Source: a virus. Taken from it: 64,000 bases of DNA. Below the pieces are notes generated by a model. It was given only the letters and a program-made list of their open reading frames with translations. It was not told the origin of the DNA and made no database searches. Where the stretch lies: the IMG/VR virus record IMGVR_UViG_3300022562_001990, positions 5,440 to 69,439 of that record, one strand, 5' to 3'. Position numbers and translations under genes: made by a program. The first letter of the stretch is position 1, and every line of letters begins with the position of its first letter. Below are positions 6,265 through 55,156 of this stretch, in pieces.

Positions 6265-8233
6265 CTGGTACCTCCCAGTTCAGTTCAATTTGGTTGGACG
6301 AAGATCCCTTCTTCGCGAGGAAGGCATCGCGACTGAATTCCCCATCGGTGATGAGATCCGAGAGATTCTTCTTCTCTCGGACTACGTCGATGAGCTCTTC
6401 GTCAATGGTCTCGGGGCAGACAAGGAAGTAGAACGTCATGTTCCGCTTTTGCCCCGGTCGAGTGATTCGTCTGTAGCTCTGATAGAACTCCTCAAAGTTG
6501 TAGCTCAGGCTGTAGTAGAAGACGTAGTTCGCCTCTGTGAGCGTGAGCCCATGGCCGACGCTTGCTGGATGGCACACCAACACGCGAGCGTTCGGGTCGT
6601 TTTTGAATCGGGTGATAGCGTCGTCCTTCGCCTTAGAACTTATGCCTCCAAAGAGTCCACGAGCACCGTACTTGGCGTAGCGCTTGACGAGCGTCTTGCA
6701 CTCCCACTGATACTGGGCCCAGATGAGCGCCTTGTTCGGAGGTCCTTCGTCCCCAATCTTGTCGGCGATGGACTGCTCCAGGAGTTCGTCCAGCTCAACC
6801 ATTTTGGGGTTGTCCTTGGCCAACGGCGTTGGATCCTTGCCATCTGTGATGAGGAAGCCGCCGGTGATTTGTCTCAGCTTGATGAGCTTGGTCGCGGCCA
6901 CTTTCGCAGTGACCGGCTCGCCCTCGAGCTCGGTGAAGAGCATGTTCTCCATGTCTTCGTAGGCCTCACGCTGCTTTTCCGTCATCGCGATATCTCGAAT
7001 GAGGAATCGCTTTGGTGGCAGATCGACGCAGTCCTCGGTTCGGAACCGAATCATTCTCGGCTCCAGCGTTCGGTATACCTGAAGAGCGGCGCCCGGTTTG
7101 GGGCGCCACTTCGTGGCGTTGTGCGTCTTCCCGGACTTGTCTTTCCAAGTCACGTTCCTGAGGATCTTCTCCTCGGCGACTTCGTTCCTGTAGTCGGTGA
7201 ACGACGGCTGAAGTGTCTGCCCGTCGTCGAGGACCGAGAACTGCGCCCATAGGTCGAGGATTCCGTTTGGAGACGGAGTACCAGTCATGATGATGCATCG
7301 CTCGCAGAGGGAGCGGATTCGCTTGAGAGCCCGGTAGGTCCGAGAGGTTCGGGACTTGAGCTTCGAGCTCTCGTCGATGACCAGGCACACCTTGTACCCT
7401 TCCTTCTTCTTTGCCCGGCAGAGGTCTTTGATCCTCTTCTCCTTTGGGTCGGTACGAAGGTTCTCTGGGTTGACAACATAGACGTCGGCGTCCTGGGCAA
7501 ACCGCTCGCTCACCTTCTTCCGGTGGCGGGCCTGAGCACGACGCTTGGCTTTTGGTCTGTAGCTGGGATCCTCTTTCCTCGCGGCTCGCAGGGCAGCGCG
7601 CTCCTTTCTGCTCATCTCCGGGTCGTCGTCTGGCTCGTCCCAGTCCTCTCCGAGTACAGTTACGGAGCTGTCCTCGCGGAGACCGACGCATCGGAGGTCG
7701 GTGAAGGACTTGGAGTCTGCAATCCAGACGTGGTTAATAAGATTGACGGGACACACGACGAGGAAGACCCACTTCTCGCCCTTGCGGATGAGGCTGTCCG
7801 CAAAGGTGAGAACCATGTAGGTCTTCCCGGTCCCGCAGTCTCCGAAGAGCGCGGGCGTGTTCATCGCGTGGAGGAAGTTGAACCCTCTGATCTGGTGGGC
7901 GAACGGCGGCATCTTGAACTCATAGCTTCCGAACGGAACCGTCGTCGCCTTCGCCCTGACTCCGACCTTGCTCTCGTACTCGTATTGCTCGCGGTCTTCC
8001 TTCATTTTTGCGACCGCTGCCATGGTCGCTTCGTCCCGGCTGAGCTTGCAGCCCATTCGGCGGAGCTTCCGGAAGTTTTGCGGGCTTGCCATGCAAGAAA
8101 CCTCCGGAAGGTCTCCGATGGGATTCGCGGAGCCGATCATGTGCAAGATCTGCTCGCGCTGCCTCAGCCAGACTTGCTCGTCCGGGTCCTCAAGGCGGAC
8201 CCGGATCTTTCCTTTCACGACTCGCGCTTTCAT
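6233..8233 (-). CDS. SNF2-family (SF2) helicase/ATPase
   Basis: Walker A GDCGTGKT, motif II IDESS, motif III TGTP, HGLTLTEA and QSYRRITRPGQ. Confidence 0.92.
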   Translation of the reverse strand: MKARVVKGKIRVRLEDPDEQVWLRQREQILHMIGSANPIGDLPEVSCMASPQNFRKLRRMGCKLSRDEATMAAVAKMKEDREQYEYESKVGVRAKATTVPFGSYEFKMPPFAHQIRGFNFLHAMNTPALFGDCGTGKTYMVLTFADSLIRKGEKWVFLVVCPVNLINHVWIADSKSFTDLRCVGLREDSSVTVLGEDWDEPDDDPEMSRKERAALRAARKEDPSYRPKAKRRAQARHRKKVSERFAQDADVYVVNPENLRTDPKEKRIKDLCRAKKKEGYKVCLVIDESSKLKSRTSRTYRALKRIRSLCERCIIMTGTPSPNGILDLWAQFSVLDDGQTLQPSFTDYRNEVAEEKILRNVTWKDKSGKTHNATKWRPKPGAALQVYRTLEPRMIRFRTEDCVDLPPKRFLIRDIAMTEKQREAYEDMENMLFTELEGEPVTAKVAATKLIKLRQITGGFLITDGKDPTPLAKDNPKMVELDELLEQSIADKIGDEGPPNKALIWAQYQWECKTLVKRYAKYGARGLFGGISSKAKDDAITRFKNDPNARVLVCHPASVGHGLTLTEANYVFYYSLSYNFEEFYQSYRRITRPGQKRNMTFYFLVCPETIDEELIDVVREKKNLSDLITDGEFSRDAFLAKKGSSSNQIELNWEVPDATSRTEAQA

Positions 8234-8236
8234 CTG

Positions 8237-9370
8237 TCACCTCCGAACCGGGAAGTGTACGTCTCGGTTCAGTCTATTCTTTAGGTTTACCAGCTCGCTG
8301 TGATTGCTGAGGTGGTCTGTGCATCGCCTGCACTCATGCATCGTACACAGGTTGAGTGCCGGTCTGTCGTCCTTCTCGACGATTGTTCCGAAGCAGTGGA
8401 CGCACATCTTGTGCTCTCCGGTAGCCGGAGTGCATGAGCGCATCTTGTTGCAGCTTGAGCATCTGAACATGTTGTCGAGCTGGTGCTCGGTGAATCGGCA
8501 GTTTTCCTGCTGGGTGTAGTAGTCCTTGAGTGGAACGGCACGAATGCTTTTGCCTCCGCACCAAATGACGTTGCCGTTGTCGGGCTTGAGCTTGTAGGCA
8601 CGGCCCTTGTGGAGCTCGACCTGGTTGAGGGGCTCGAAGACAAGATCTCCGCTCGGTCTCTTGAGGTTCTTCACCCATTGGTAGCCTCCGATGCGATTCG
8701 GCTTTCTCGATGGCCACTCCTTGCTTGGACTGAGCTCGAGGAACCAGTCTCGGATCTGTTCGGATACCCAGTGGTACATGTCGGGGCTCGACTCAGCCAT
8801 TGGTTCGACTGCATTTGGATCGCGGGCCTGCGAGAGCAGCATCTGCATCTGCTCAGACGCTTCGTCGTAAGGCTCGCTCACTGGCGAGTCTAGTGTTCGC
8901 TCGCACCGCCGATAGATGCGAAGCTTGATTGGACCGTTGTGATCAATCTTGACGTAGTGGTTCTGTTCGGTGCCTGTCTCTCGTAGCGCATACATATAGG
9001 CGTAGGCGTTGAAGAATGGCGTGACCTCTTCGACTCCGAAGAACTTGAGCACCCAGCGATAGCCCGGCTCAGTCCTGAACCAGAGGAAGTGCGCCATGCA
9101 CACCGAGAGGATGGACCACTTGTACTCGGGACGGAGCTTCTCCCTCATGGGGACACCGGCGACGTCGCGCTTGAAGATGGCCATGACGTGCTCGACGCAG
9201 TCTCCATGGGGGAGCCAGTCTTTGGGGATGCCCCATCCGAGCGCCGCGGAGGTGCCTTCGGGGGCGTGTGGGTTGGGCGCTTGGTAGCGCAAGTAGTTTG
9301 CTTCTCGTTGCCATTGCGCAACTTCTTCGGGGGTCGGTGGATAGCCTTGAGCGATTGTGTATCTGGACAT
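8237..9370 (-). CDS. Hypothetical protein with Cys-rich C-terminus
   Basis: ATG 9370 after AAGGAG; CSSC, CVHC and CRRC motifs. Confidence 0.75.
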   Translation of the reverse strand: MSRYTIAQGYPPTPEEVAQWQREANYLRYQAPNPHAPEGTSAALGWGIPKDWLPHGDCVEHVMAIFKRDVAGVPMREKLRPEYKWSILSVCMAHFLWFRTEPGYRWVLKFFGVEEVTPFFNAYAYMYALRETGTEQNHYVKIDHNGPIKLRIYRRCERTLDSPVSEPYDEASEQMQMLLSQARDPNAVEPMAESSPDMYHWVSEQIRDWFLELSPSKEWPSRKPNRIGGYQWVKNLKRPSGDLVFEPLNQVELHKGRAYKLKPDNGNVIWCGGKSIRAVPLKDYYTQQENCRFTEHQLDNMFRCSSCNKMRSCTPATGEHKMCVHCFGTIVEKDDRPALNLCTMHECRRCTDHLSNHSELVNLKNRLNRDVHFPVRR

Positions 9371-9392
9371 GGGAAGTCTCCTTTCTATCCCT

Positions 9393-9400
9393 CTTATGCC
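9393..9400 (-). promoter_or_regulatory. GGCATAAG putative phage-specific promoter
   Basis: Exact octamer 22 nt upstream of the first gene of the minus-strand unit; recurs at four other unit heads. Confidence 0.65.
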
Positions 9401-9488
9401 CTGGAGAGCGGCCTGTGATTGACCGAGGAGCTCGCGGCGACCTACACTGTGGTCGGTATTTGTTACCCGGAGAAACTGAAGGAGAACC

Positions 9489-10211: not shown

Positions 10212-10291
10212 GCTCTCCGGTCGGATGGGCTAGGGTAAACCTCCACCTGGTCCTTGGTGCCAATGTCGAGTACGGCACACTTCAGGAGAGC

Positions 10292-10588
10292 ATGGCCATC
10301 GAGGCCTGGAGGAAGCAGCAGCGCATCGAGCTCTACAAGACCATCGCTGGCGTCACGGCCTCGGTGAATCCAGAGAGCGCTCAGAAGGCGTTGCGGCAAC
10401 TCATCGAAGAGATGTTCCCGGAGGTTGCGACCGAGCGGGAGCGAGCAGTCGACAAGGCCCTGGAAATCATGGAGAAGGAGAAAGACAAGTCCTACAAAGT
10501 CGCTGCCGTTGGTAGTTCACTTGGGAAGGGATCTTGGGGCCGGATGCAGAATATACTGAAGCAGAAGAAGAGGCCGAGGAGACCGTAG
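10292..10588 (+). CDS. Putative tail chaperone second part (T-like), probably reached by -1 frameshift
   Basis: Its frame is open from 10130 and is -1 relative to the upstream ORF. It abuts the tape measure start. Confidence 0.55.
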   Translation: MAIEAWRKQQRIELYKTIAGVTASVNPESAQKALRQLIEEMFPEVATERERAVDKALEIMEKEKDKSYKVAAVGSSLGKGSWGRMQNILKQKKRPRRP

Positions 10589-16277: not shown

Positions 16278-16280
16278 TCG

Positions 16281-19200: not shown

Positions 19201-19298
19201 CACAGCCACTATCGGAGAAGCAGGTCATTGATCTGCGGCGGGCAGTCATCGATGCTTACAGAGATGAGCTTGAGAGGAACCGTGGATTCACTGGATAA
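16281..19298 (+). CDS. Putative baseplate hub protein (gp27/gpD-like) with long C-terminal extension
   Basis: LRLYMEG...LLFEGIV start and GPFNMRPIPGFP...AYLDAIVHDI hub-like barrel; operon position. Confidence 0.6.
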   Translation: MPGHGKGAEVKLRLYMEGRLVENALNHVQVSGHTGSPATAQLSLVPTNTIKHILPGTWVHVFATDPWDQNPRGDVGDYKLLFEGIVVSRGFTRADDGRALSVQCADPSIYWVEARQFWLSITSANGGIVDQLAIQTSGGYGRFGSVTAEGVYGYMIPKIALTKDQGEERFMDTMISVIDDIGNVNPFYTNARNRFRITDRIIRGNAGNTEKLFQLALLSDFLDGLGGGQSGQSNLAQLVNQLLGSIMHEWVSVPAPPYVSTRIFSRDVFGNIKRKKTTVNRTDSRGRRKVDLFEYETAIDSVVASYIFKPHVYTLSPPTCNVLFPNMYDQMSYQENFMQETTRLQMMPQLPMKNQRQLMGLYMLRPAEIELFTAQIRDENSKSPGKRTPDGKYADGAGQAPRFNDYDWTTNEERIRGIVYNFINLAPAPSTLTLQGQGKKEPDGNRKGGIPDYLQNVASYEYFKAKFAARQSSLSGPFNMRPIPGFPILALDDSDADMNIVAYLDAIVHDISANGSATTQYAIQYPRFVDEVDFNRPRFKAAGTKYEGQLDFDLYRDERGNYDFGTIYDGENAPPIPEWFDEKLRSLTGLNDTYAEWFGSNVGVVQSFLFEDADDNEVALIAQQEAERTQEYEELGIDASKGVNLKVTTPSQVPGVTGETITASDALSDKNKDDIQRANDKITLQDATDELNDAYRRSRGDNREFELASTVTDRSFTRIDEAFRFVGASSVEYADRTKKPSQSARVTFDKNPAATRRVDYRTAKFRTFVGDTSTGSGYYGVKEGEAKPNPTTTSTTVSDATAGQVEVDAVSGADAAAPEDRMSGAFPVFDTTVHTGDEALDQKTRDSLLTSNSERAPSDRARYDGRPVMFDFEFRIWQDSLRIAGFSPTGERIADAAELATNYVTERGQTRPATAQELAQAREARAAAIAARKEEEEARASKGRGNPSKDPNMAPSQQAPTGDGLYQKEKPALPQPLSEKQVIDLRRAVIDAYRDELERNRGFTG

Positions 19299-20142
19299 AA
19301 ATGAAGACCTCGAGCTCGACGTAGAGGCTGAGCTTGAAGAGTGGCTAGAGAAGCAGGCTGCAGAGATGGGAATCTCGCAGGATGACCTGCGCCAGCAGGA
19401 GCTCGATGCGTGGGAGCGCTGGCGTTCGAACCCCAACCCAGAGGATTTTAGCTGGCTCTACAACAGCCACCAGCCACTCATCAACAGCGCAGGAGGCAGG
19501 TATCTCCGTACCGTGCAGCTTCCTAAGGCCGCAATCAAGAGCAGGCTTCTTCGGAACTACGTCAAGGCTCTCGAGACCTACGACCCGACCCGCGGAACCC
19601 AGCTGAGCAGCCATGTCTACAGTGGACTTGGGTACCGGATGCAGAGGTATATCCAGAAGTACACGAATGTCGGTCGAATCCCCGATGACCGAGCGTGGAT
19701 GATCCCCATGATCCAACAAAGGGAAGCCGCCTTGAATGATCTCCTGGGAAGGAAGCCGTCCGACGCCGAGCTAGCAGATGACATCCTCGTCTCGCAGCAG
19801 GGCCTATCCGACCTTCGGCGGGGACAGGTGACGCCCAAGAACGTGGCCACTACACGCAGGGAGCTGCGCAACGACCTCATTGCCGAGGAGGCCGGCGGAG
19901 AGGCTCAGCTTGGCGGCCGGTCTTATGTTGAGCAGCAGGCAGTGTTCCTCCATGGCTCGTTGAACCCGGAGCAGCAGCTCGTGCTCGAGCATACCTTCGA
20001 GGGATTCGGCAAGCCCATCATCACCGACGTGGACCAGCTTTCGAAGGAGCTGGACATGTCGCCGCAAAAGGTTCGCGCAATCAAGAAGCAGCTCGAAAGG
20101 AAGCTGGAGCGCTACTACCGCTCGACGAATGTGAGTGACTGA
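19282..20142 (+). CDS. Sigma70-family RNA polymerase sigma factor (FliA/SigF-like architecture)
   Basis: Region 2 KALETYDPTRGTQLSSHV, region 3 LGRKPSDAELAD, region 4 LNPEQQLVL...LSKELDMSPQKVRAIK. GTG 19282 follows GAGAGGA. Confidence 0.85.
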   Translation: MDSLDKNEDLELDVEAELEEWLEKQAAEMGISQDDLRQQELDAWERWRSNPNPEDFSWLYNSHQPLINSAGGRYLRTVQLPKAAIKSRLLRNYVKALETYDPTRGTQLSSHVYSGLGYRMQRYIQKYTNVGRIPDDRAWMIPMIQQREAALNDLLGRKPSDAELADDILVSQQGLSDLRRGQVTPKNVATTRRELRNDLIAEEAGGEAQLGGRSYVEQQAVFLHGSLNPEQQLVLEHTFEGFGKPIITDVDQLSKELDMSPQKVRAIKKQLERKLERYYRSTNVSD

Positions 20143-22139: not shown

Positions 22140-22157
22140 TAAGGTTTTTCGTAAGTT

Positions 22158-27388: not shown

Positions 27389-27418
27389 TTGACGATGCAG
27401 GGCGCTCCCCACTAGAAT
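27389..27418 (+). promoter_or_regulatory. Sigma70-type promoter TTGACG-N18-TAGAAT
   Basis: Near-consensus -35/-10 pair in the intergenic gap before 27430. Confidence 0.6.
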
Positions 27419-37903: not shown

Positions 37904-37911
37904 CTTATGCC
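37904..37911 (-). promoter_or_regulatory. GGCATAAG putative phage-specific promoter
   Basis: Exact octamer in a divergent intergenic region. Confidence 0.6.
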
Positions 37912-37946
37912 TGGAAAGGGGGTGTGTTCCGGGGTCGTTGACCGTG

Positions 37947-37952
37947 TAGAAT
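37947..37952 (+). promoter_or_regulatory. -10 box TAGAAT for the head-protein operon
   Basis: TAGAATCCA, identical to the 9-mer at 27413. Confidence 0.45.
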
Positions 37953-37996
37953 CCAACTGATACCGTCACTCACTGCTCCCAGGGGAAGGTCCACAT

Positions 37997-41639: not shown

Positions 41640-41659
41640 AAAGAGGCTAGGCATCTCGC

Positions 41660-45517: not shown

Positions 45518-45518
45518 C

Positions 45519-46007: not shown

Positions 46008-46030
46008 CGGACCTCCTTTCTTCTCCGATT

Positions 46031-46038
46031 CTTATGCC
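46031..46038 (-). promoter_or_regulatory. GGCATAAG putative phage-specific promoter
   Basis: Exact octamer 23 nt upstream of ATG 46007. Confidence 0.65.
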
Positions 46039-46292: not shown

Positions 46293-46420
46293 GGATGGTT
46301 AGTTTTCTTGTAGTTGAGGGGTTGAAGAGGTGTTTCCGGTGCAATCGGATTCTTGATAGTATTTTTCGTGCTTTGGCTCCTCTTTGAGGGGATACAGCGG
46401 TAGATTCTTTCCACGATCTT

Positions 46421-46428
46421 CTTATGCC
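46421..46428 (-). promoter_or_regulatory. GGCATAAG putative phage-specific promoter
   Basis: Exact octamer 19 nt from the divergent RNAP start. Confidence 0.6.
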
Positions 46429-46447
46429 GGGACGATGTAGGTGACTG

Positions 46448-49400
46448 ATGGAAACGCTTGATTACGGGACGCAGTTCGAGGGACTGAAAAAGGACGTCGT
46501 TGCTGCGTTCACGAAGGCGTTGGACATCCAGGCGAAGGGAACGAATCGCCAGATCCGGGTCAACAAGGTCTGGATCGACGACACGAAGAACTCGTCGGAC
46601 TGGGAATCTCAGAGAGAAGCCGTTCGAAAAGACAAGACCTGGGGCGTCCCGGTCTACGCATCGCTGGACCTCATCGACCGAAAGACCGGAAAGGTCTTTT
46701 CATCGGCAAAGCGTATCAAGGTTGCGACGCTTCCCAAGAACACCGACCTCGGAAGCTTCATCGTCGACGGAAAGCACTACCAGGTGCAGAACCAGCTCCG
46801 GCGAAAGCCTGGCATCTACGTCACCGAGAAGAAGACTGGCGAGAAGAAGACCGAGATCAACATCAAGGGCCGCCCCTTCGACATCGAATACAACGATCAG
46901 GAGGCGACGTTCGGATTCATTCGGGGGCAGAACAAGACGCCGATCCCCCTCTATCCCATCCTCTCGAGGATTGGTATTTCCGACTCGGCTTTGGCGAAAG
47001 CCTGGGGCGAAGACGTCCTTGCGGCGAACAAAGCCGTTCCCAAAAAGCAGCAAGAGACGGCGGTCATCAAGGCGGCCGAGTACCTTACCGGCAGCAAGCT
47101 GGATTCTCCTGATGCCGCAGCAAAGGCCATCGCCGACTACCTCGAGGACACGGAGCTGCGTCCAGAGGTCACCAAGGAGACTGTCGGGAAGGCGTTCGAA
47201 AACGCTTCCCCGGAGGCAGTCTTTCGCGGCTCCATCGAGCTCCTCAAGGCTGCCCGTGGAGAACGGAAGCCCGACGATCGCCAGGCGCTCGAGTTCAAAA
47301 AGGTCATGGGGACAAGGGATCTCATCCGCGAGCGCTTGCTGCAAGAGAGCGGTGAGCTCGCGCCTAAGCTGGCCGAGTTTCGCAAGAAGGTCTACTGGCG
47401 ACTGAACAATCGCAAGGCCCCGCCAACGGATATCTCGAAGCTGGTGAGCTCGAACGAGTTCACCCCTGCGGTGACAAACTTCTTCACTCAGTCCCAGCTT
47501 GCGAGCACTACCGACCAGACAAATCCACTGAACATCCTCAACGGAATGTCGAAGGTCACGATTCTTGGCGAGGGCGGCGTCTCGTCTGAGAACGTGATCC
47601 GAGACGAAGAGCGCGGGGTCCATCCATCGCACCTCGGCTTCCTTGACCCGATCCACACCCCAGACTCGGGGAAGATCGGCGTGGTTGGAAACCTCCCGCT
47701 TGGCGTGAAGCGTCAGGGCGATAGCCTGATGACGAGGATCTTCGACCCGAAGACCAAGAAGTCTCGCTATGTCTCTCCGTCTGAGATGCGCAGCCTGAAC
47801 GTGGCGTTCCCGGACCAGTACAAAAACGGCGAGTTCATCGACGAGAAGGTGAAAGCTCTCCTCAAGGACAACGAGCTCGGCATTGTCGATGCCTCGAAGA
47901 TCGACGCTGTCCTAGCGTCACCGAAGCAAGCCTTCTCGATTTCCTCCAACACCATCCCATTCCTGCCGTCGGCCCAGGGCGTTCGTGCCCAAATGGCAAC
48001 GAAGATGCTCGAGCAGGCAATTCCTCTCGCTGAGCGAGAAGCGCCGCTTGTGCAAGTGAAGGCTGGCCGGTCAACGATGGAGGAAGGGATCGGAGAGGGC
48101 TTTTCGGTACGCGCCCTCGAGGACGGCGTGGTTGAGAAGGTGACCCCCAACAGAATCATCATCGCCACAAAGGACGGGAAGGTCGAGCAGCCAATCTTCA
48201 ACAACCTGAAGCTCAACAAAAAGGCGTTTCTCCATGGTGAGCCAACTGTCAAAGAGGGCGACCAGGTCAAGAAGGGGCAGGTAATAGCCGACTCCAACTT
48301 CACCAGGGACGGCACCCTGGCGATTGGTACGAACCTTCGCGCTGCCTACGTCCCATACAAGGGCCTCAACTTCGAGGACGGCATTGTCATCACCGAGACA
48401 GCTGCCAAGAAGCTTTCGAGTGAGCACATTCATGAGCATGCGGTCTCTCCCGACAAGGGCGACGAATACGACCTCGACGCCTTCCTTGCCTGGGATCCGG
48501 GGCGACTCGATGTAGAGCAGCAGAAGAAGCTCGACAAAGATGGCATCGTTCGGAAGGGTCAGATCGTCAAGAGGGGCGACCCGCTCTGGGTCGGAACCAG
48601 AGAGAACAGGCAGGACCCTGAGTATATCGCCATGAGGAAGATCTCGCCGAACGCAAAGCCTAGGCGAGGCCACATGGAGTCGTGGACCAATGACGTCGAC
48701 GGAGAGGTCGTCGATGTCGTCAAGACCGGGAAGAAGGTCAAGGTCTACGTCAAGACGAAAGAGCCAGCGCAGATCGGCGACAAGCTCACAAACCGGCACG
48801 GCGGCAAAGGCATCATCACGAAGATCATTCCAGACGGCGAGGCTCCCCATACAGGAGACGGAGAGAACGTCGACATCCTTCTGAACCCTCACGGCATTGT
48901 CAGTCGAATCAACCCCTCCCAGATGCTCGAAACCGCGGCGGCCAAGATGGCCGACAAGCTGAACGCCACTTATGTGGTCGACAACTTTTCCGGCGAAGAC
49001 TACGTCGAGACCATCAAGAAGGAGCTCGAAAAGACGAAGGTGTCCGACAAGGAGCTCCTGTTCGATCCGCACTCCAAGGACCCACTGGGGGAAGTGCTTG
49101 TGGGACCGCAGTATTTCCTGAAGCTCAACAAGCAGGCGACCTCGCAGTTTTCGGCCAGGTCTGATGGCAAGTACGACGCGAACAAGTCTCCTCTGCGCGG
49201 TGGCGAGGACGGCGCAAAGTCACTCGACCTTCTCACCTTCTACTCGATGCTCTCCCATGGCAGCCGCGCCAACCTACGAGAGATGGCCACCTACAAGGCG
49301 TCGAAGAACGACCACTTCTGGAACTGGCTAAAGGGTGGCCACAAGAGCGGCATGGTGAAGCCGCCGCCGGTGCCAACCTTTGCCTACAACAAATTCGAAG

Positions 49401-52400
49401 CCTACTTGAAGGGGGCTGGCGTCAACGTCCAGCGCCGCGGATCCAAGATGGTCCTCGGTCCCATGACGGACGAGCACACTGCCAGGCTCTCAAACGGCGC
49501 GATCAAGGAGCCGCTCTTCGTCCGGGGCAAAGACCTTCGAGAAGAGAAGGGTGGGCTCATGGATATCGACATCACAGGTGGCCGCCAGGGCGACAAGTGG
49601 TCTCACATCGAGCTGGCAGAGCCAATTCCGAACCCTGCGTTTGAGAAGCCAATCCGCACTCTGACGGGACTGAACCAGGCCCAGTACAACGGCCTTACGT
49701 CAGGGAAGCTCTTTGTCGATCCCGAGACGGGGGAGTGGGCAGAGTCGGGTGTCACCGGAGGTGCTGGCCTCCAGGCGATGCTCAGGCAGATCGACATCGA
49801 TGATGAGATCAAAAAGAAGACCGACGAAGCGAAGACGGCAAAGACAACTGCAAAGCTGGATGCTGCAAACAAGAGCCTGAAGTACCTCTCCGCTCTGAAG
49901 AAGTTGAACCTTCGGCCGGAGGATGCGTACATCCAGACGAAAATTCCGGTTCTACCGCCCCAGTTTCGACCGGTCATTGAGCTCGAGGGCGGACAGCTCT
50001 CGAACCCCGGCGTGAACACGCTCTACCGAGATGTAGGCCTCATCAACAACGAGCTCGAGTGGCAGAAGACCGTCCCCTATCTCACCGACGAGATCAAGGC
50101 TGAGCTCCGCGAGGACCTCTACAACGGAACGAAGGCAGTTGCTGGTCTTGGTGACCCGATCTTCAGGTACCCACAGAAACGGTCTCCAAAGGGCCTTATC
50201 ACGCAGATCACGGGCGCACCAAAGTCGGGGAAAGAGGGCATGTTCATCAAGAAGGTCCTCAAGCGCAACCAGGACCTTGTCGGCCGCGGAACCATCATTC
50301 CTGAGCCAAAGCTCGGCTTGGACGAGGTTGGCCTCCCGGAGGAGATGTCGTGGAATCTTTTCGAGCCATTCGTCACAAGGCGGCTCGTCAACAGCGCCGG
50401 CAAGTCGCCACTCATGGCAGCCGAGGAAGTTCGAAAGCGCACTCCTGTTGCCAAGGCAGCCCTCGAGGCTGAGATGGCCGAACGGCCAGTCCTACTCAAT
50501 CGGGCACCGTCCCTTCACAAGTTCTCCATCATGGCCTTCAAGCCTCGCCTCACAGATGGCAAGGCAATCAAGATTCCACCGCTTGTCGTGAAGGGGTTCA
50601 ACGCCGACTTCGATGGTGACGCAATGACGGTTCACGTACCCGTGCTCACCGAGGCGGTGCAGGAGGCGGAGCGCATGCTCCCATCCAACAACCTGTTCAA
50701 CCCAGGTACCGGTGGCATCATGACGCAGCCGCAGAACGAAGCTGCGCTTGGTCTCTACATGATGTCCAAGGATCCTCAGAAGAGCGAGAGCATCATCAAG
50801 GAGCTCCCCAAGCCACTGCAGGAAAAGTATCGCGGCGTCGAGCTCAACAAAAAGAACCTCGGCAACCTCATGAAGGACATGGCCGAGGTGGCGCCTCGCG
50901 AGCACGGAAAGGTCATCGACAAGCTCAAGGCCATGGGCGATGAGCACACCTACAAGACCGGGTTCTCCGTTGGCATCAACGATCTAACCCCGGCCATTCC
51001 GGAGCGAGACAAGATCTTCAAGAAGACTGAGCAGAGCATCGCAAAGCTGAAACTCAGTGACCCGAAGGGCGTCGAGAGAGCGCGAGAGATTCTCGACAAG
51101 GCCAATGGCGAGCTCGAGGAGGCCATGAAGAAGCGTCTTGGAGAACAAGACAACAACTTCGACCTGATGGTTCGCTCTGGAGCCAGAGGCAACATCACCC
51201 AGCTCAAGCAGATCGTTTCGTCGCCATTCATGGTTCCAGACCACAAAGGCGACCCCATCCCTCTCCCTGTCACTAGGTCTTTCGCCCAGGGCCTCAAGTT
51301 CTCTGACTACTGGAATACGCTCTACGGGGCGCGAACTGTTGCAACCGAAAAGCAACTCCAGACCAGTGTCCCCGGTGCCTTCAACAAGGACATCATGGCG
51401 GCATCGATCACCAATGTCGTTGCCGACAGCGACTGCAAAACATCCAAGGGCCTCGAGATCGGAATCGACAGCCCAGATGTAGAGGATCGGTTTCTGGCAA
51501 AGGATGTTTCTGTCAACGGAACCATCATTGCGAGAGCTGGAAACCCTGTCACCCCTGGGCTCCTCAACACCATGCGAGAGCGACACGTTGGGAAGGTCGA
51601 AGTGCGGTCTCCGTTGACCTGCAAGCTCCCTAAGGGAACTTGTGCAAAGTGCTACGGGCTTACCGAGAATGGGCAGCTTCCTGCGATCGGCGACAACATC
51701 GGCGCCATCTCCGGGCAGGCTCTCAGTGAACCCTTGACCCAGATGACGCTCCGAACCTTCCATTCCGGCGGCGTGTCTCAGGCCCGCGGCGTAGCAACGG
51801 GCTACGACAAGATCGACAAGCTTCTCAAGATGCAGAAGATCAAGCGCGGCAAGGCCACTCTCGCCCAGGTCAGCGGCAAGGTGGAATCCGTCAAGGAGGC
51901 GCCAGGTGGAACGGGCAAGAACGTGAAGATTGGGAAGACGACCCACTTCATCCCGAACGAGCTCTGGGAGCCGTCGATGGTCAGGACCGGGAAGTCGGTC
52001 GAGAAGGGCGACATCCTGTCTGCCGGACTGGCGCAGCCGAACGAGCTTGCCGATCTCAAGGGAATGCTCCCCGCCCAGGAGTACATCTCCAGCCAGGTGC
52101 AGGACGCCTACCAGAAGCAAGGCGTTCCCATCAAACGGCGCGCTGTCGAAACGGTGCTCAGAGCTGTCGGGAACACGACGAAGGTGCTCGACCCGGGCGA
52201 CAGCGGGTTCCTCCCCGGAGACATTGCCCCCTACACAGCCGTCGAGGACTTCAACAACAAGTCGCTCGGCAAGAAGATGATCGAAGAGGCTCTCGGGCAC
52301 CGCCTTCAGGAGGATATGCCTGGCGTGAAAAAGGGGACCGTCATCACCGAGAGGGTCAAGAACATCCTCGAAAGGGCAGGTATCAGCAAGGTCGAGGTCG

Positions 52401-52636
52401 GCCCCAAGCCCATCGATCACCAGCCCTTCCTCTCAGGAATTCAGCGAGCTCCGCTGATGCGAGACGACTGGATGAGCCAGATGGGCTACCAGTACCTCAA
52501 AGATGCCATAATCGAGGGCGCAGGTTCCGCCGGTGAGTCAGACATCCACGGATATTCGCCCATCCCAGCCTTCGCCTATGGCGCGGAGTTTGGCGATGAG
52601 CCGGCCGGCCTCTCGAAGAAGAAGGGCGTGTACTGA
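46448..52636 (+). CDS. rpoBC: DNA-directed RNA polymerase, single-chain beta-beta' fusion
   Basis: Beta motifs: DQTNPL, HPSHLGFLDPIHTP, NFEDGI, GDKLTNRHGGKG, LNPHGIVSR. Beta' motifs: HIELAEP, PVLPPQFRP, LNRAPSLH, NADFDGD (50600-50620), SEPLTQMTLRTFH. No stop between the halves. Confidence 0.96.
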   Translation: METLDYGTQFEGLKKDVVAAFTKALDIQAKGTNRQIRVNKVWIDDTKNSSDWESQREAVRKDKTWGVPVYASLDLIDRKTGKVFSSAKRIKVATLPKNTDLGSFIVDGKHYQVQNQLRRKPGIYVTEKKTGEKKTEINIKGRPFDIEYNDQEATFGFIRGQNKTPIPLYPILSRIGISDSALAKAWGEDVLAANKAVPKKQQETAVIKAAEYLTGSKLDSPDAAAKAIADYLEDTELRPEVTKETVGKAFENASPEAVFRGSIELLKAARGERKPDDRQALEFKKVMGTRDLIRERLLQESGELAPKLAEFRKKVYWRLNNRKAPPTDISKLVSSNEFTPAVTNFFTQSQLASTTDQTNPLNILNGMSKVTILGEGGVSSENVIRDEERGVHPSHLGFLDPIHTPDSGKIGVVGNLPLGVKRQGDSLMTRIFDPKTKKSRYVSPSEMRSLNVAFPDQYKNGEFIDEKVKALLKDNELGIVDASKIDAVLASPKQAFSISSNTIPFLPSAQGVRAQMATKMLEQAIPLAEREAPLVQVKAGRSTMEEGIGEGFSVRALEDGVVEKVTPNRIIIATKDGKVEQPIFNNLKLNKKAFLHGEPTVKEGDQVKKGQVIADSNFTRDGTLAIGTNLRAAYVPYKGLNFEDGIVITETAAKKLSSEHIHEHAVSPDKGDEYDLDAFLAWDPGRLDVEQQKKLDKDGIVRKGQIVKRGDPLWVGTRENRQDPEYIAMRKISPNAKPRRGHMESWTNDVDGEVVDVVKTGKKVKVYVKTKEPAQIGDKLTNRHGGKGIITKIIPDGEAPHTGDGENVDILLNPHGIVSRINPSQMLETAAAKMADKLNATYVVDNFSGEDYVETIKKELEKTKVSDKELLFDPHSKDPLGEVLVGPQYFLKLNKQATSQFSARSDGKYDANKSPLRGGEDGAKSLDLLTFYSMLSHGSRANLREMATYKASKNDHFWNWLKGGHKSGMVKPPPVPTFAYNKFEAYLKGAGVNVQRRGSKMVLGPMTDEHTARLSNGAIKEPLFVRGKDLREEKGGLMDIDITGGRQGDKWSHIELAEPIPNPAFEKPIRTLTGLNQAQYNGLTSGKLFVDPETGEWAESGVTGGAGLQAMLRQIDIDDEIKKKTDEAKTAKTTAKLDAANKSLKYLSALKKLNLRPEDAYIQTKIPVLPPQFRPVIELEGGQLSNPGVNTLYRDVGLINNELEWQKTVPYLTDEIKAELREDLYNGTKAVAGLGDPIFRYPQKRSPKGLITQITGAPKSGKEGMFIKKVLKRNQDLVGRGTIIPEPKLGLDEVGLPEEMSWNLFEPFVTRRLVNSAGKSPLMAAEEVRKRTPVAKAALEAEMAERPVLLNRAPSLHKFSIMAFKPRLTDGKAIKIPPLVVKGFNADFDGDAMTVHVPVLTEAVQEAERMLPSNNLFNPGTGGIMTQPQNEAALGLYMMSKDPQKSESIIKELPKPLQEKYRGVELNKKNLGNLMKDMAEVAPREHGKVIDKLKAMGDEHTYKTGFSVGINDLTPAIPERDKIFKKTEQSIAKLKLSDPKGVERAREILDKANGELEEAMKKRLGEQDNNFDLMVRSGARGNITQLKQIVSSPFMVPDHKGDPIPLPVTRSFAQGLKFSDYWNTLYGARTVATEKQLQTSVPGAFNKDIMAASITNVVADSDCKTSKGLEIGIDSPDVEDRFLAKDVSVNGTIIARAGNPVTPGLLNTMRERHVGKVEVRSPLTCKLPKGTCAKCYGLTENGQLPAIGDNIGAISGQALSEPLTQMTLRTFHSGGVSQARGVATGYDKIDKLLKMQKIKRGKATLAQVSGKVESVKEAPGGTGKNVKIGKTTHFIPNELWEPSMVRTGKSVEKGDILSAGLAQPNELADLKGMLPAQEYISSQVQDAYQKQGVPIKRRAVETVLRAVGNTTKVLDPGDSGFLPGDIAPYTAVEDFNNKSLGKKMIEEALGHRLQEDMPGVKKGTVITERVKNILERAGISKVEVGPKPIDHQPFLSGIQRAPLMRDDWMSQMGYQYLKDAIIEGAGSAGESDIHGYSPIPAFAYGAEFGDEPAGLSKKKGVY

Positions 52637-53640
52637 TGGATGAGATCGAATACCCAGGAATCCCTCCGCGAGAGAAAAGAGAGGAAGACAACTTCCTGCC
52701 TGCCCTCGCCGGGGCAGCGTCGCTGTTCCTCACGCCAAAGATGCTTGAGCCATACGGCAGGATCCCGCTCGAGATGTACGAGAAGTCCACTGCCGACCTG
52801 GCGATCAAGGCTCCCCAGGGAACTCCTCTCGAGCAGATCGCAGAGTTCACGCCGGATGAGGTTCAAAAGATCCGAGGGTTCGCCGACAGGAAGGGCGTCA
52901 CGGCAGCAATCGAGGCCGCCGGGCCTGGAGAAGGAAGCCACTTCGCCCTCCGTGGCATTGGGGATGAGGGCGTTGTCAGGCTGGGCAAGAGCCACGTTCC
53001 GAGTGCCCTTCACGAGATCGGCCACGCCTCTCCCATCCTAGGAAGCCGCGGTCTTCGAGACACCTCTCTCATTGGCCACTCTCTCTCGCGAGGCCGGCCA
53101 GGAAAGCTACTCCGCGCAGCAATCGGCCTGAACCTTCTCCGCGACCAGGAGGACGCTGGTGAGCTCTCCCAGTTCGCCTACGAGAATGCGCCAGCCCTCA
53201 TGGGGGCCACCTATGCCCCGATGCTCCTCGAGGAGGCCCGTGCGAGCGGTCACGCCATCGCAGGAGGTAAAAAATTCGGCCCTGGAGCCATGGAGACTGC
53301 CAAGTCGATGGCGCCGGCCTTCGGGACCTATCTCACGAGAGCGCTTGCCCCCATCATTGCGGCTATCGTCACCAAGAGGGTTGTGGAGAGCGTGCGTGGG
53401 TCCAAGGACGGCCATGAAAAGGAGGCGCTCGAGCAGACGCCACGCATCCTTCGGGCAAGCGCGGCTTCGGCCTGGCGAATGAGGCCGCCGGCGGCCAAGC
53501 CGAAGACCACGAAGCCGACAAGCAGCCTCTCCGCAAACGGCAAGGAGGTCGCGAAGCTTCAGCCTCCAAGCAACAAGGCCTACTACCGGGACCTTCTTGA
53601 GTCTCTGCACAACCCGGCGCGCGGGTTCCGTAGCACCTAG
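52636..53640 (+). CDS. Putative zincin metalloprotease
   Basis: ALHEIGHA (HExxH) with downstream EEARAS third-ligand-like motif; coupled to the RNAP stop (TGATG). Confidence 0.65.
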   Translation: MDEIEYPGIPPREKREEDNFLPALAGAASLFLTPKMLEPYGRIPLEMYEKSTADLAIKAPQGTPLEQIAEFTPDEVQKIRGFADRKGVTAAIEAAGPGEGSHFALRGIGDEGVVRLGKSHVPSALHEIGHASPILGSRGLRDTSLIGHSLSRGRPGKLLRAAIGLNLLRDQEDAGELSQFAYENAPALMGATYAPMLLEEARASGHAIAGGKKFGPGAMETAKSMAPAFGTYLTRALAPIIAAIVTKRVVESVRGSKDGHEKEALEQTPRILRASAASAWRMRPPAAKPKTTKPTSSLSANGKEVAKLQPPSNKAYYRDLLESLHNPARGFRST

Positions 53641-54152
53641 TTTGGCTTCTTGGTGAATCCGTAGCAGGCGAGATCGGCACCCTTCGTCCCGAGCTCGACG
53701 CAAGACTTCTCGCCGTTGTTGTCGCCGTCCATGGGGGCGCTGATGAACCACCTGCAGTCTCTGCAGCGAAGCTGCTTTCCACGGTACCCGGCCTCTCTGT
53801 AGTCCTGCGTCATATTTCTCGAGTCCTCTCGAAGGTGGGCTCTAAGAAAAAGGCGCTCACGCGCTGCAGGCTCAAGGTCCTTCAGATCTACCCGATGAAT
53901 GATCAGGTGATCTCTGAAGGCCTTGAGTTCTGCAGGCGGGATTACAACTTCGTTCTCTTCGAGGAAGGCTTGGAGCTCAACCAGGCTTCCGTCCTCCACG
54001 CTGCGTCTGAGGATTTTGCCGAGGGTTTTGATGTGTTCCGGGGTTTGTAGGTCCAGAATCTTCTTGGCCTCAGCAACGCGCTTTTCAACATCCTCGAGGA
54101 CTCTCAGCTGCGCGGGGGACAGCTTGCTGCGGTCTAGCTCTTTTGCCTCCAT
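53637..54152 (-). CDS. Hypothetical protein with C-terminal Cys cluster
   Basis: CRDC...C...C; shares CTAG stop with the convergent gene. Confidence 0.7.
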   Translation of the reverse strand: MEAKELDRSKLSPAQLRVLEDVEKRVAEAKKILDLQTPEHIKTLGKILRRSVEDGSLVELQAFLEENEVVIPPAELKAFRDHLIIHRVDLKDLEPAARERLFLRAHLREDSRNMTQDYREAGYRGKQLRCRDCRWFISAPMDGDNNGEKSCVELGTKGADLACYGFTKKPN

Positions 54153-54159
54153 AGGACGC

Positions 54160-54648
54160 TCATGCTAGCCCAATATGCGCCCCAACGAAATTCCCCAGGT
54201 CGCACGGAGGCATCGTTCTGATCCGTCCGAGGTCGTGGGCAACTGATGAGATTGGGCAGTGCGTCGCGAGATTCGGTGTCCAAGAGAGTATTTGCCTGAT
54301 ATCTCGGGCAATGTACGCCGAATCATCGATGTCCCCTTCGTCGAATCGATCGACACAGCCAAAGCCATCGGCAAGCTGGTCGGTTTCCTCGACTCGCAGA
54401 TTGAGGTTCTTCATGACAACCCAGAACGAGTCCGTGTCCGGGGCGACAATCAGAAGCCTCAGGGCTGCGATTGGGAACGGAGAGCTGCTCCAGCAATAGT
54501 TGCCAGAGAGCCCTGCCAGTGGTGGACTGAGCTCACAGAGAAGTCCGTTCTCTTTCACGAAGAAAGACCCTGTGGGTAGGACGAGGTCTTCCTTTGTCGG
54601 GCTTGGCTCTTTCACCCGTTTGTTTTCATGGTGGGCATAGAATAGCAA
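54160..54648 (-). CDS. Hypothetical protein (start uncertain)
   Basis: Fills the gap in the minus-strand operon; the antisense frame is also open. Confidence 0.45.
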   Translation of the reverse strand: MLFYAHHENKRVKEPSPTKEDLVLPTGSFFVKENGLLCELSPPLAGLSGNYCWSSSPFPIAALRLLIVAPDTDSFWVVMKNLNLRVEETDQLADGFGCVDRFDEGDIDDSAYIARDIRQILSWTPNLATHCPISSVAHDLGRIRTMPPCDLGNFVGAHIGLA

Positions 54649-54675
54649 GGTGGGATCCTCCTGATACGGGGTTGG

Positions 54676-55095
54676 CTAGAACGGGATGTCGTCGTCGCTG
54701 CTTCCCGGTCCAGGATCCTCGTAGTTCCCGTAGCCATCGTTGCCACCTCCGCTGCCGCCGCCAGACTTCTCCGAAGTCTTCGGGCCAAACTCCCAGTAGG
54801 TGCCCTTGCCCTCGGTAGTCCACCTGTCGTTCCCCTCCTTGTCCTGCCACTTGCGGACTTGGATTTTCGACTTGGTGAAGATCCAATCGCCCTTCTTGAA
54901 GAACTTGGCGATGGTCTCTCCGCTTTTGCCCCAGAAGTTCACGTTCCACCAGGTCGTGCGCTCCTGCTTGTTGCCGTCCTTGTCCTTCCACCTCTCGGTG
55001 TCTGCGATTCGGATGGAGGTTACGGTTGTATCGCCAACCGTCCTGGTCTCTGGATCTGCACCCAGGTAGCCAGTAAAAACTACTTCGTTTGCCAT
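54676..55095 (-). CDS. ssb: Single-stranded DNA-binding protein
   Basis: NEVVFTGYLGADPE OB-fold start, WWNVNFWG, Gly linker and DDDIPF tail. Confidence 0.96.
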   Translation of the reverse strand: MANEVVFTGYLGADPETRTVGDTTVTSIRIADTERWKDKDGNKQERTTWWNVNFWGKSGETIAKFFKKGDWIFTKSKIQVRKWQDKEGNDRWTTEGKGTYWEFGPKTSEKSGGGSGGGNDGYGNYEDPGPGSSDDDIPF

Positions 55096-55112
55096 TTGAT
55101 TTCTTTCTCCTT

Positions 55113-55134
55113 CCTCAGCACCCGCTGAGGTTTT
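55113..55134. terminator. Perfect 7-bp hairpin CCTCAGC-ACCC-GCTGAGG plus TTTT
   Basis: Has terminator form on the + strand and abuts the ssb SD on the - strand. Confidence 0.5.
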
Positions 55135-55148
55135 AGTTGTACAAGTAC

Positions 55149-55156
55149 CTTATGCC
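55149..55156 (-). promoter_or_regulatory. GGCATAAG putative phage-specific promoter (ssb unit)
   Basis: Exact octamer 53 nt upstream of the ssb ATG. Confidence 0.65.

What the first reader, a model, noticed from the sequence alone, without database searches (positions are those of the whole stretch)
6639..55156. Octamer GGCATAAG heads the minus-strand transcription units
Seen: exact copies, all on the minus strand, at 9393, 37904, 46031, 46421 and 55149, each upstream of a minus-strand gene start. All five have an A 14 nt upstream (AC in four). A sixth copy at 6639 lies inside the helicase, where it forces a rare ATA codon, and a one-mismatch copy lies at 450. By rough composition estimate, about one chance copy per strand is expected in 64 kb. 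Inference: promoter -10 element for the phage RNAP/sigma.
Basis: partly seen in the sequence, partly recalled or inferred. Interest (0 to 1): 0.75.

Follow-up and report, generated by a model that had tools for sequence, protein, structure and literature searches.

The report
Phage-specific promoter octamer GGCATAAG
GGCATAAG is very probably the core of a phage-specific promoter that switches on the replication-type genes on one strand of a large phage that carries its own bacterial-type RNA polymerase and sigma factor, and near-identical octamers do the same in related phages, including a cultured Salmonella phage.

Summary
GGCATAAG occurs 6 times in the window and 7 times in the 69-kb record, always on the minus strand. 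About 0.2-0.7 copies are expected. Six of the 7 lie in non-coding gaps 19-128 nt before minus-strand start codons.

Five related contigs hold 31 more copies and none on the other strand. Salmonella phage Arash has GGTATAAG 30 times on one strand and once on the other.

Seven nt after the octamer, 66 of 66 sites have a purine, and the base before it is usually a pyrimidine. That pattern fits a transcription start, which would place the octamer at -14 to -7. No conserved -35 element was found.

The phage encodes a fused beta-beta' RNA polymerase (46448-52636) and a sigma70-family protein (19282-20142). The Arash counterparts of both were reported in virions.

Plus-strand virion genes instead carry conserved TTGACC-N17/18-TAnnnT promoters.

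Best reading: this is a promoter class without a -35 element, read by the phage holoenzyme. That it is a promoter has odds of about 0.9. Which enzyme reads it is inferred, at about 0.6. No transcript data were available.

The parts
9393..9400 (-). GGCATAAG copy, 22 nt before the ATG (9370) of the first gene of the long minus-strand block (377-aa gene, SNF2 helicase, methyltransferases)
   Evidence: Kept at the orthologous place in G003 and G005.
6639..6646 (-). GGCATAAG copy inside the SNF2 helicase gene (GGC ATA AGT); probable internal promoter for the genes downstream
   Evidence: It contains the only ATA codon of the helicase. The same codons are kept in G003 although neighbouring synonymous sites differ. 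G005 lacks it and has a copy just after the helicase gene instead.
37904..37911 (-). GGCATAAG copy heading the single-gene minus-strand unit 37352-37777
   Evidence: the octamer is conserved in G003
46031..46038 (-). GGCATAAG copy, 23 nt before the ATG of the 162-aa gene 45519-46007
46421..46428 (-). GGCATAAG copy, 19 nt from the RNA polymerase ATG on the opposite strand; leads to the 86-aa ORF 46032-46292
   Evidence: A copy at this place is present in all of G001-G004. A GGYATAAG-like word at the same place was seen in 10 of the 11 distant relatives inspected.
55149..55156 (-). GGCATAAG copy, 53 nt before the ATG of the single-strand DNA-binding protein gene (54676-55095), which heads a three-gene minus-strand unit
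   Evidence: PHROG 44 SSB, E 1.6e-33; octamer conserved in G001, G002 and G003
450..457 (-). Variant CGCATAAG in the gap before the 716-aa minus-strand gene that starts at 376; probable weaker member of the class
   Evidence: The same variant, cGCATAAG, stands at the RNA-polymerase-adjacent site in distant relatives L014 and L019.
19282..20142 (+). Sigma70-family factor (286 aa), lying inside the tail/baseplate gene block; candidate reader of the octamer
   Evidence: SigA 7l7b_F, E 4.8e-8, residues 92-284; family profile against RpoS, E 1.5e-14; 107 homologues, several carrying Pfam sigma70 r2 or r3; homologue of Arash gp10
46448..52636 (+). Fused beta-beta' multisubunit-type RNA polymerase (2062 aa) with an NADFDGD catalytic motif
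   Evidence: Rpb2_6 E 5e-51; Rpb1_2, Rpb1_5 and others; bacterial beta', E 5e-114
9419..9448 (+). Sigma70-like promoter TTGACC-18-TACACT, back to back with the octamer at 9393, 41 nt before plus-strand gene 9489
   Evidence: the only such site in window 1-20000; both hexamers conserved in G003 while the spacer sequence differs
37938..37966 (+). Sigma70-like promoter TTGACC-17-TACCGT, back to back with the octamer at 37904, 31 nt before plus-strand gene 37997
   Evidence: G003 has TTGACC-18-TACCTT
27389..27418 (+). Sigma70-like promoter TTGACG-18-TAGAAT in a gap between plus-strand virion genes
   Evidence: identical hexamers in G003

Best explanation
GGCATAAG is the core recognition element of a phage-specific promoter class. 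It would occupy about -14 to -7, like an extended -10 element. There is no conserved -35 element, and transcription would start at the purine 7 nt downstream.

The class drives the minus-strand genes, which are non-structural: SSB, SNF2 helicase, DNA methyltransferases and many small genes of unknown function. It works from unit heads, from behind terminators and from one site inside a gene.

The most likely reader is the phage's own holoenzyme: the fused beta-beta' RNA polymerase together with the sigma70-family factor at 19282-20142. By analogy with relatives Arash and YerA41, this enzyme probably travels in the virion and acts early.

Plus-strand genes (virion proteins, the polymerase and the sigma) are driven by a second class of canonical TTGACC-N17/18-TAnnnT promoters, probably read by host sigma70-type holoenzyme.

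Shown: occurrence, orientation, position, conservation, the start-site-like signature, and the presence of polymerase and sigma genes. Inferred: that transcripts start there, which enzyme reads the element, and the timing.
For: - Enrichment and strand: 7 minus-strand and 0 plus-strand copies in the record, against 0.21 expected per strand.
- Position: 6 of 7 copies are non-coding, 19-128 nt before minus-strand start codons. The copy at genome 1753 follows a hairpin and T-run directly, in a terminator-then-promoter layout.
- Close relatives (polymerase 64-68% identical): 19 copies in G001-G004, all on the strand opposite the polymerase gene, with 0 control hits. G005 has 11 GGCATAAG plus 1 GGTATAAG on one strand and 0 on the other, with controls 3 and 1. 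Orthologous sites are kept while flanks diverge.
- Helicase codon: the rare ATA codon is kept in two helicase orthologues.
- Start-site signature: position 15 is a purine in 24/24, 12/12 and 30/30 sites. Position 14 is a pyrimidine in 21/24, 10/12 and 29/30.
- Wider family: Arash (polymerase 34% identical) has GGTATAAG 30 times reverse and 1 forward, with controls 3 and 2. It is that genome's most over-represented 8-mer, 30 against 2.1 expected. Of the 42 reverse GYATAAG sites, 30 are non-coding, and 29 of those are followed by a reverse-strand gene. GGYATAAG also sits next to the polymerase gene in metagenomic relatives with 39-68% G+C.
- Phage enzyme: the polymerase and sigma genes are identified. 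In the sigma family profile the usual FSTYATWWIRQ stretch aligns to LSTHVYNELG-R, so the -10-reading region is unlike sigma70.
- Virion association: Arash beta, beta' and sigma gp10 were detected in particles (PMC10585845, passages). gp10 is the homologue of the window's sigma. YerA41 particles also hold polymerase subunits and a sigma (PMC7354516, passages).
- Opposite-strand class: TTGACN-N16-18-TAnnnT occurs 4 times on plus and 0 on minus in G000, with 3 of the 4 non-coding and 12-41 nt before plus-strand genes. The same three sites are in G003.
Against: - No transcript 5' ends or expression data exist for this record; no RNA run was listed.
- Gene positions come from my own simple codon-usage ORF caller, not a standard gene finder.
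- Orthologous sites are not independent observations, so the 24-site profile overstates the sample size.
- Not every minus-strand block head in G001 has a copy within 130 nt. Of the seven heads printed, the octamer (or, at one head, the variant GTATAAG) is visible at 2, and a third has its copy 383 nt upstream. One G001 copy, at 61907, lies between two ORFs that I called as plus-strand.
- The helicase-internal copy is absent from G005.
- Vibrio phage D69 (polymerase 32% identical) shows no enrichment: 9 against 5, with controls 5 and 10. Pooled over the 80 distant metagenome loci the bias is modest: 50 against 19, with controls 24 and 46. The class therefore does not cover the whole polymerase family.
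- The Arash form, TGGTATAAG, matches the host extended -10 consensus TGnTATAAT (consensus recalled) at 8 of 9 positions, so host sigma70 cannot be excluded there.
- The record is a fragment, about 38% complete by CheckV, so further sigma or polymerase genes may exist.
Confidence: 0.62

Rival explanations
1. The octamer is a real promoter element but is read by host RNA polymerase. The reader would be host primary or alternative sigma, or host core redirected by a phage factor. The phage sigma and polymerase would then read the TTGACC-N17/18-TAnnnT class on the other strand.
For: - CATAAG shares 4 of 6 positions with TATAAT, and Arash's TGGTATAAG shares 8 of 9 with TGnTATAAT (sequences; consensus recalled).
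- The phage sigma aligns to SigA and RpoS through regions 2-4, including a region 4 that normally reads a -35 element.
- The octamer class has no -35, while the other class does.
Against: - The last base is G in every copy in every clade. Sigma70-type -10 elements almost always have T there (established knowledge).
- The octamer is conserved in phages with 39-68% G+C, which presumably have very different hosts.
- The sigma's -10-reading stretch lacks the conserved aromatic residues.
- Polymerase and sigma packed in virions would be expected to read non-structural early genes, which are the genes carrying the octamer.
Confidence: 0.25
2. The octamer is not a promoter. It would be an oriented binding site for a phage regulator (operator or activator half-site), or an RNA-level signal in 5' leaders such as a processing or translation signal.
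For: - It is a short, invariant, non-palindromic word in 5' regions of genes.
- It often lies 19-23 nt before the start codon, close to the ribosome-binding site.
Against: - Distances to start codons range from 16 to more than 100 nt, whereas the pyrimidine-purine step is fixed at 7 nt.
- One copy directly follows a terminator-like hairpin.
- No other promoter-like element is seen for these units. The only sigma70-like sites in those gaps point the other way.
- It is a single copy per site, with no repeats or dyad symmetry.
Confidence: 0.08
3. The pattern is chance, or a by-product of base composition or codon usage.
For: One copy lies in a coding frame (6639). Several other over-represented 7- and 8-mers in this genome are simply codon-usage words, for example GTCTACA in frame 0 in 13 of 15 cases.
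Against: - 0 of 100 shuffles reach the observed count.
- 6 of 7 copies are non-coding (P = 2e-7).
- 31 further copies in five related contigs are all in one orientation.
- The pattern is repeated in Arash with 30 against 1.
Confidence: 0.01

Closest known systems
Extended -10 promoters of bacterial sigma70 holoenzyme (TGnTATAAT, -35 dispensable)
   Same: An 8-9 bp element sits at about -15 to -7, needs no -35, and has a purine start about 7 nt downstream. The central ATAA and the G at -14 are shared. The Arash form, TGGTATAAG, matches 8 of 9 positions.
   Different: - The last base is always G, not the nearly invariant T.
- In this clade position -12 is C.
- There is no T preference at -15 in the window's clade (7 of 24).
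- The likely reader is a phage sigma whose -10-reading region is divergent.
T4 late promoters (TATAAATA, read by gp55 with gp33 and the sliding clamp)
   Same: It works like this: a single invariant octamer at -10 with no -35 marks one temporal gene class of a large phage.
   Different: - T4 uses the host core enzyme with a minimal sigma (gp55). Here the sigma has regions 2-4 and the phage brings its own beta-beta'.
- The genes driven here are non-structural, not late virion genes.
- No gp55 or gp33 homologue was looked for.
N4 transcription scheme (virion RNA polymerase for early genes, host sigma70 polymerase for late genes)
   Same: The proposed division of labour is the same. An injected phage enzyme reads phage-specific promoters of early or replication genes. 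Sigma70-like promoters serve the virion genes.
   Different: The N4 virion enzyme is a single-subunit T7-like polymerase that recognises DNA hairpins. Here the enzyme is a bacterial-type beta-beta' fusion with a sigma70-family factor and a linear octamer. Timing in this phage is untested.
Jumbo-phage multisubunit polymerases (phiKZ, AR9) and their promoters
   Same: These are also phage-encoded multisubunit-type polymerases, some of them virion-borne, that read short phage-specific motifs.
   Different: Those enzymes are split into several highly divergent subunits and have no sigma (PMC7824862, passages). The window's enzyme is one chain, very close to bacterial beta' (E 5e-114), and comes with a sigma70-family protein.
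Salmonella phage Arash and Yersinia phage YerA41 (cultured relatives)
   Same: - They have a homologous polymerase (34% and 26% identity).
- Arash has a homologous sigma in the same tail-module position.
- Arash has the same strand layout and the same octamer with T in place of C.
   Different: Arash's polymerase is in two genes (gp206, gp216), not fused. Neither paper contains the word 'promoter', so the motif is not described there.

Membership tests
Bacterial sigma70-type extended -10 promoter | -10 hexamer close to TATAAT, with A at -11 and T at -7 | tested here: not met
   CATAAG matches 4 of 6 positions. A at -11 is present. Position -7 is G in all 7 copies of the record, all 31 copies in G001-G005 and all 30 reverse-strand Arash copies.
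Bacterial sigma70-type extended -10 promoter | TG at -15/-14 | tested here: inconclusive
   G at -14 is invariant. T at -15 is seen at only 7 of 24 sites in the window's clade and 18 of 30 in Arash.
Bacterial sigma70-type extended -10 promoter | Start site about 7 nt downstream, usually a purine after a pyrimidine | tested here: met
   Sequence signature only: purine at position 15 in 66 of 66 sites and pyrimidine at position 14 in 60 of 66. No transcript mapping was done.
Canonical -35/-10 sigma70 promoter | TTGACA-like hexamer 16-18 bp upstream of the -10 | tested here: not met
   No conserved position between -45 and -9. The recurrent GGTCAA upstream lies at variable distance (18-26 nt) and is the TTGACC -35 of the divergent plus-strand promoter.
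Phage-specific promoter class (an oriented word heading the genes of one class) | Strand-specific, non-coding, upstream of same-strand genes, and conserved among relatives | tested here: met
Phage-specific promoter class | Transcripts start at the element, and a defined enzyme depends on it | not testable with these tools
   No RNA run was listed. This needs 5'-end mapping and in vitro transcription.
Sigma70 family (for the protein at 19282-20142) | Regions 2, 3 and 4 in order | tested here: met
   - The protein aligns to SigA residues 189-385 (E 4.8e-8).
- The family profile aligns to RpoS 132-311 (E 1.5e-14).
- On the single sequence, the Pfam r3 and r2 hits are below the curated cut-offs.
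- Homologues carry PF04539 or PF04542.
T4 gp55-type late promoter system | gp55/gp33 homologues, and late virion genes as targets | not tested
   No gp55 or gp33 search was run. The target genes here are SSB, helicase and methyltransferases, not virion genes.
phiKZ/AR9-type split multisubunit polymerase system | beta and beta' split into several divergent subunits, with no sigma | tested here: not met
   A single 2062-aa chain has strong Pfam and PDB matches to bacterial beta and beta', and a sigma70-family gene is present.

The most novel reading that the evidence does not exclude
A widespread family of roughly 120-210-kb phages packs a bacterial-type RNA polymerase into the virion together with its own sigma70-family factor. 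The family has at least 341 metagenomic polymerase relatives plus cultured Arash, and in this clade the polymerase is fused into a single beta-beta' chain. On injection this holoenzyme reads a promoter without a -35 element, GG(C/T)ATAAG, that differs from the universal -10 by a G at -7. That difference would insulate the phage's early or replication genes from the host sigma. The host polymerase reads the sigma70-like promoters of the opposite-strand virion genes. This is an N4-like division of labour built from bacterial-type parts, and it would give a natural orthogonal sigma-promoter pair.
Probability: 0.45. Interest if true: 0.7.

Novelty: new member of a known kind. Interest (0 to 1): 0.55.

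Why it matters
- It gives a precise and testable promoter definition for a large, almost unstudied phage family that carries a bacterial-type polymerase and sigma: GG(C/T)ATAAG, with the start 7 nt downstream. The test can be run in a cultured member, Salmonella phage Arash.
- It splits the genome into two regulons by strand, the octamer class and the sigma70-like class. That is a ready framework for annotating these phages, whose genes are mostly of unknown function.

Tried and rejected
- Expression data: no RNA holder was listed for window 45400-55399.
- Rfam found no family and ARAGORN found no tRNA in the window.
- A -35-like partner for the octamer. The recurring GGTCAA upstream lies at variable spacing (18, 22 and 26 nt). 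It is the TTGACC -35 of the divergent plus-strand promoter, or coding sequence at the polymerase start. Rejected.
Rejected as part of the motif.
- One-mismatch variants are not enriched. Only CGCATAAG at 450 looks functional.
- The ATG inside CTTATGCC as a plus-strand start codon: at the polymerase-adjacent copy the frame stops after 6 codons (read from the sequence). Rejected.
- Other over-represented words: GTCTACA is an in-frame codon word.
- The region between 46032 and 46414 as a conserved non-coding RNA: the alignment is poor beyond about 60 nt, and it holds an ORF whose MY[FI]Y N-terminus recurs in G001 and G003. Rejected.
- Vibrio phage D69 shows no enrichment of GGYATAAG.
- No second polymerase gene and no alpha-subunit homologue were found in the fragments held. 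No second sigma was found either. The records are incomplete.
- Literature:
  - Searches found no description of this motif or of a fused beta-beta' phage polymerase.
  - Searches were poorly targeted.
  - The Arash and YerA41 papers do not contain the word 'promoter'.
  - Supplementary tables of those papers (full virion proteomes, expression classes) could not be seen.
  - This is not proof that the motif is unpublished.
- The megablast search of the polymerase gene against GenBank phages found nothing. The protein-level search found only distant relatives.

Full report
WHAT IS THERE

The window is bases 5440-69439 of a single 69,439-bp viral record. CheckV rates the record about 38% complete. 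In 100 dinucleotide-preserving shuffles the mean count was 0.72 and none reached 6. The whole record has a seventh minus-strand copy at genome position 1753 and none on the plus strand. An order-2 Markov model expects 0.21 copies per strand. Words with one mismatch are not enriched: 27 sites with up to one mismatch were found against 28 expected.

POSITION RELATIVE TO GENES

I mapped genes with a simple self-trained codon-usage ORF caller. It is not a standard gene finder. By that map 94.3% of the record is coding, yet 6 of 7 copies lie in non-coding gaps (binomial P = 2e-7).

Each non-coding copy is followed by a minus-strand start codon. The distances are 19, 22, 23, 53, 126 and 128 nt. The 128-nt case leads to an 86-aa ORF at 46032-46292 that my caller missed and the ORF listing shows.

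The genes served include:
- a single-strand DNA-binding protein (PHROG 44, E 1.6e-33);
- a block holding an SNF2-type helicase and DNA methyltransferases;
- small genes of unknown function.

The copy at genome 1753 directly follows a GC-rich hairpin and T-run, which is a terminator-then-promoter layout. The seventh copy (6639) is in frame inside the helicase as GGC ATA AGT. ATA makes up 25 of 1172 Ile codons in the record and is the only ATA among the helicase's 31 Ile codons.

RELATIVES

The 2062-aa gene at 46448-52636 is a fused beta-beta' multisubunit-type RNA polymerase.
- Pfam: Rpb2_6 at E 5e-51, plus Rpb1_2, Rpb1_5 and others.
- PDB: bacterial beta' at E 5e-114.
- The NADFDGD catalytic motif is invariant among relatives.

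Using this gene as a handle I found four IMG/VR contigs with 64-68% identical polymerases. They hold 19 copies of GGCATAAG, all on the strand opposite the polymerase gene, with 0 hits for the reversed control word. G004 repeats G001 at both of its sites, so I left it out of the later profiles.

A fifth relative, G005, was found through the helicase. It has 11 GGCATAAG and 1 GGTATAAG on one strand and none on the other, with controls 3 and 1.

Copies sit at orthologous places while the flanks diverge:
- 19-20 nt from the polymerase ATG on the other strand;
- before the SSB gene;
- before the 377-aa gene that begins MS(R/Q)Y;
- in G003, inside the helicase at the same GGC ATA AGC codons, although neighbouring synonymous sites differ.

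G005 lacks the internal helicase copy (GGG GGA ATC AGT) and has a copy just downstream of the helicase gene instead. That fits an internal promoter that can move.

Over G000-G003, 22 of 24 copies are non-coding.

ANATOMY

In the 24-site profile no position between -45 and -9 is conserved.

Downstream there is a fixed signature. Counting the octamer as positions 1-8, position 15 is a purine in 24/24 sites of the G000-G003 clade, 12/12 of G005 and 30/30 of Arash. Position 14 is a pyrimidine in 21/24, 10/12 and 29/30. This pyrimidine-purine step at a fixed 7 nt is what a transcription start looks like. It places the octamer at -14 to -7, the span of an extended -10 element.

THE WIDER FAMILY

The best 80 were kept.

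I inspected 11 loci whose polymerase alignment begins at or near the protein's first residues. The site next to the polymerase start, on the opposite strand, reads GGGTATAAG, GGTATAAG, cGCATAAG, GGGATAAG or TTATAAG in 10 of them. L018 shows none. Several of these loci carry multiple GG(T/C)ATAAG copies on that strand: L013 has 6 against 0, L088 has 5 against 0, and L015 and L071 each have 5 against 1. Their G+C ranges from 39% to 68%. Pooled over all 80 loci the bias is only 50 against 19, with controls 24 and 46, so many members use something else.

Among cultured phages:
- Salmonella phage Arash (polymerase 34% identical) has GGTATAAG 30 times on the reverse strand and once on the forward strand, with controls 3 and 2.
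- It is that genome's most over-represented 8-mer, 30 against 2.1 expected.
- Of 42 reverse-strand GYATAAG words, 30 are non-coding by my caller, and 29 of those are followed by a reverse-strand gene. The consensus is tGGTATAAGtaaagTGTAa.
- Vibrio phage D69 (32% identical) shows no enrichment.

WHO READS IT

The window encodes a 286-aa sigma70-family protein at 19282-20142, inside the tail/baseplate block.
- On its own it aligns to SigA (7l7b_F, E 4.8e-8, residues 92-284).
- A profile of 40 homologues aligns to RpoS and SigA through regions 2-4 (E 1.5e-14).
- Pfam hits on the single sequence are below the curated cut-offs.
- 107 homologues were found, several carrying Pfam sigma70 r2 or r3 and JGI sigma names.
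- In the profile alignment the conserved FSTYATWWIRQ stretch of RpoS pairs with LSTHVYNELG-R, so the part that reads and melts the -10 element is unlike sigma70.

Its Arash homologue (tblastn E 6e-16) is gp10, annotated as a sigma factor and lying in the same tail-module position.

The Arash paper (PMC10585845; I read passages) reports that beta gp206 was the most detected protein in particles. It also reports beta' gp216 and sigma gp10 there, and suggests a role in early transcription. [quoted passage not shown] Neither paper uses the word 'promoter'.

A SECOND PROMOTER CLASS ON THE OTHER STRAND

Back to back with the octamers, the plus strand carries canonical sigma70-like promoters:
- TTGACC-18-TACACT at 9419, the only such site in window 1-20000;
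- TTGACC-17-TACCGT at 37938;
- TTGACG-18-TAGAAT at 27389.

The pattern TTGACN-N16-18-TAnnnT occurs 4 times on the plus strand and 0 on the minus strand in the record. Three of the four are non-coding and 12-41 nt before plus-strand genes. The same three sites, with conserved hexamers and diverged spacers, are in G003. Plus-strand genes include baseplate, portal-like and terminase genes, the polymerase and the sigma.

INTERPRETATION

That the octamer is a promoter core is well supported; I put it at about 0.9. Which enzyme reads it is an inference.

I favour the phage holoenzyme, at about 0.6, for four reasons:
- the final G is invariant where sigma70 promoters have T;
- the word is inherited across phages of very different base composition;
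- the phage sigma's -10-reading region is divergent;
- virion-borne polymerase plus sigma would logically serve non-structural early genes.

The main rival, at about 0.25, is the reverse assignment: host enzyme on the octamer and phage sigma on the TTGACC class.

WEAK POINTS

- There are no transcript data.
- The gene calls are my own.
- Orthologous sites are not independent observations.
- Some G001 minus-strand blocks have no copy near the head.
- One G001 copy lies between ORFs that I called as plus-strand.
- All the records are incomplete.

NOVELTY

Phage-specific promoters made of a -10 element alone are a known kind; T4 late promoters are the example I recall. This would be a new member of that kind, in a poorly studied family. 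The searches I ran and the passages I read did not turn up a description of this motif.

Noticed in passing
window 46448-52636 (+): Beta and beta' of a bacterial-type RNA polymerase are fused in one 2062-aa chain. That is several hundred residues shorter than separate bacterial subunits (size comparison recalled). At least 341 metagenomic relatives were found on contigs up to 213 kb. No alpha-subunit homologue was found in the fragments held.
   Followed up: partly
whole record (G000), e.g. 36 sites of CGAGCTCG: The palindromes CGAGCTCG (36 against 5.9 expected) and CCTCGAGG (29 against 5.5) are strongly over-represented. CGAGCTCG is also over-represented in G001 and G003. 25 of the 36 CGAGCTCG sites share one codon frame, so codon-pair usage may explain it, but enrichment of palindromes is unusual.
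   Followed up: partly
G001 (L005-L008) and Arash (L095-L104), minus/reverse strand: The words CTAAAAAA, GCTAAAAA and CTAAAAAG, the complements of TTTTT(T)AG(C), are among the most over-represented 8-mers and occur on one strand only. Counts are G001 6 against 0.02 expected and Arash 17 against 0.7. They look like a conserved tail of reverse-strand terminators, and some sit directly before an octamer.
   Followed up: no
window 45519-46007 (-) and 46032-46292 (-): Two neighbouring genes both begin MY(F/I)Y, and in this record each has its own octamer. G001 has the same two genes but an octamer only before the first. Their function is unknown.
   Followed up: partly
window 55113-55130: A GC-rich hairpin followed by TTTTAG on the plus strand lies between the SSB start codon and the octamer at 55149. 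It could end plus-strand transcripts, and on the minus strand it is part of the SSB leader.
   Followed up: no
window 22155-22162 (-) and G003 (G3r orientation) 17155: The one-mismatch word GGCATAAC is kept at orthologous places. On the plus strand it overlaps the ATG of gene 22158-22583, so the conservation is probably coding context and not a promoter.
   Followed up: partly
G001, about 71800-71920 (in L007), minus strand: The sequence upstream of the minus-strand block 62933-71790 looks like a tRNA 3' half (a T-arm-like GGTTCGACTC...). I did not run ARAGORN on it.
   Followed up: no
window 1119-1736, 4170-4979 (-): At least two DNA methyltransferase-like genes lie in the octamer-driven block (PHROG 799, E 1e-28; Pfam N6_Mtase, E 1.8e-5). 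More distant polymerase relatives, YerA41 and Carin-5, are reported to have hypermodified thymidine (abstract listing). DNA modification in this clade was not examined.
   Followed up: no
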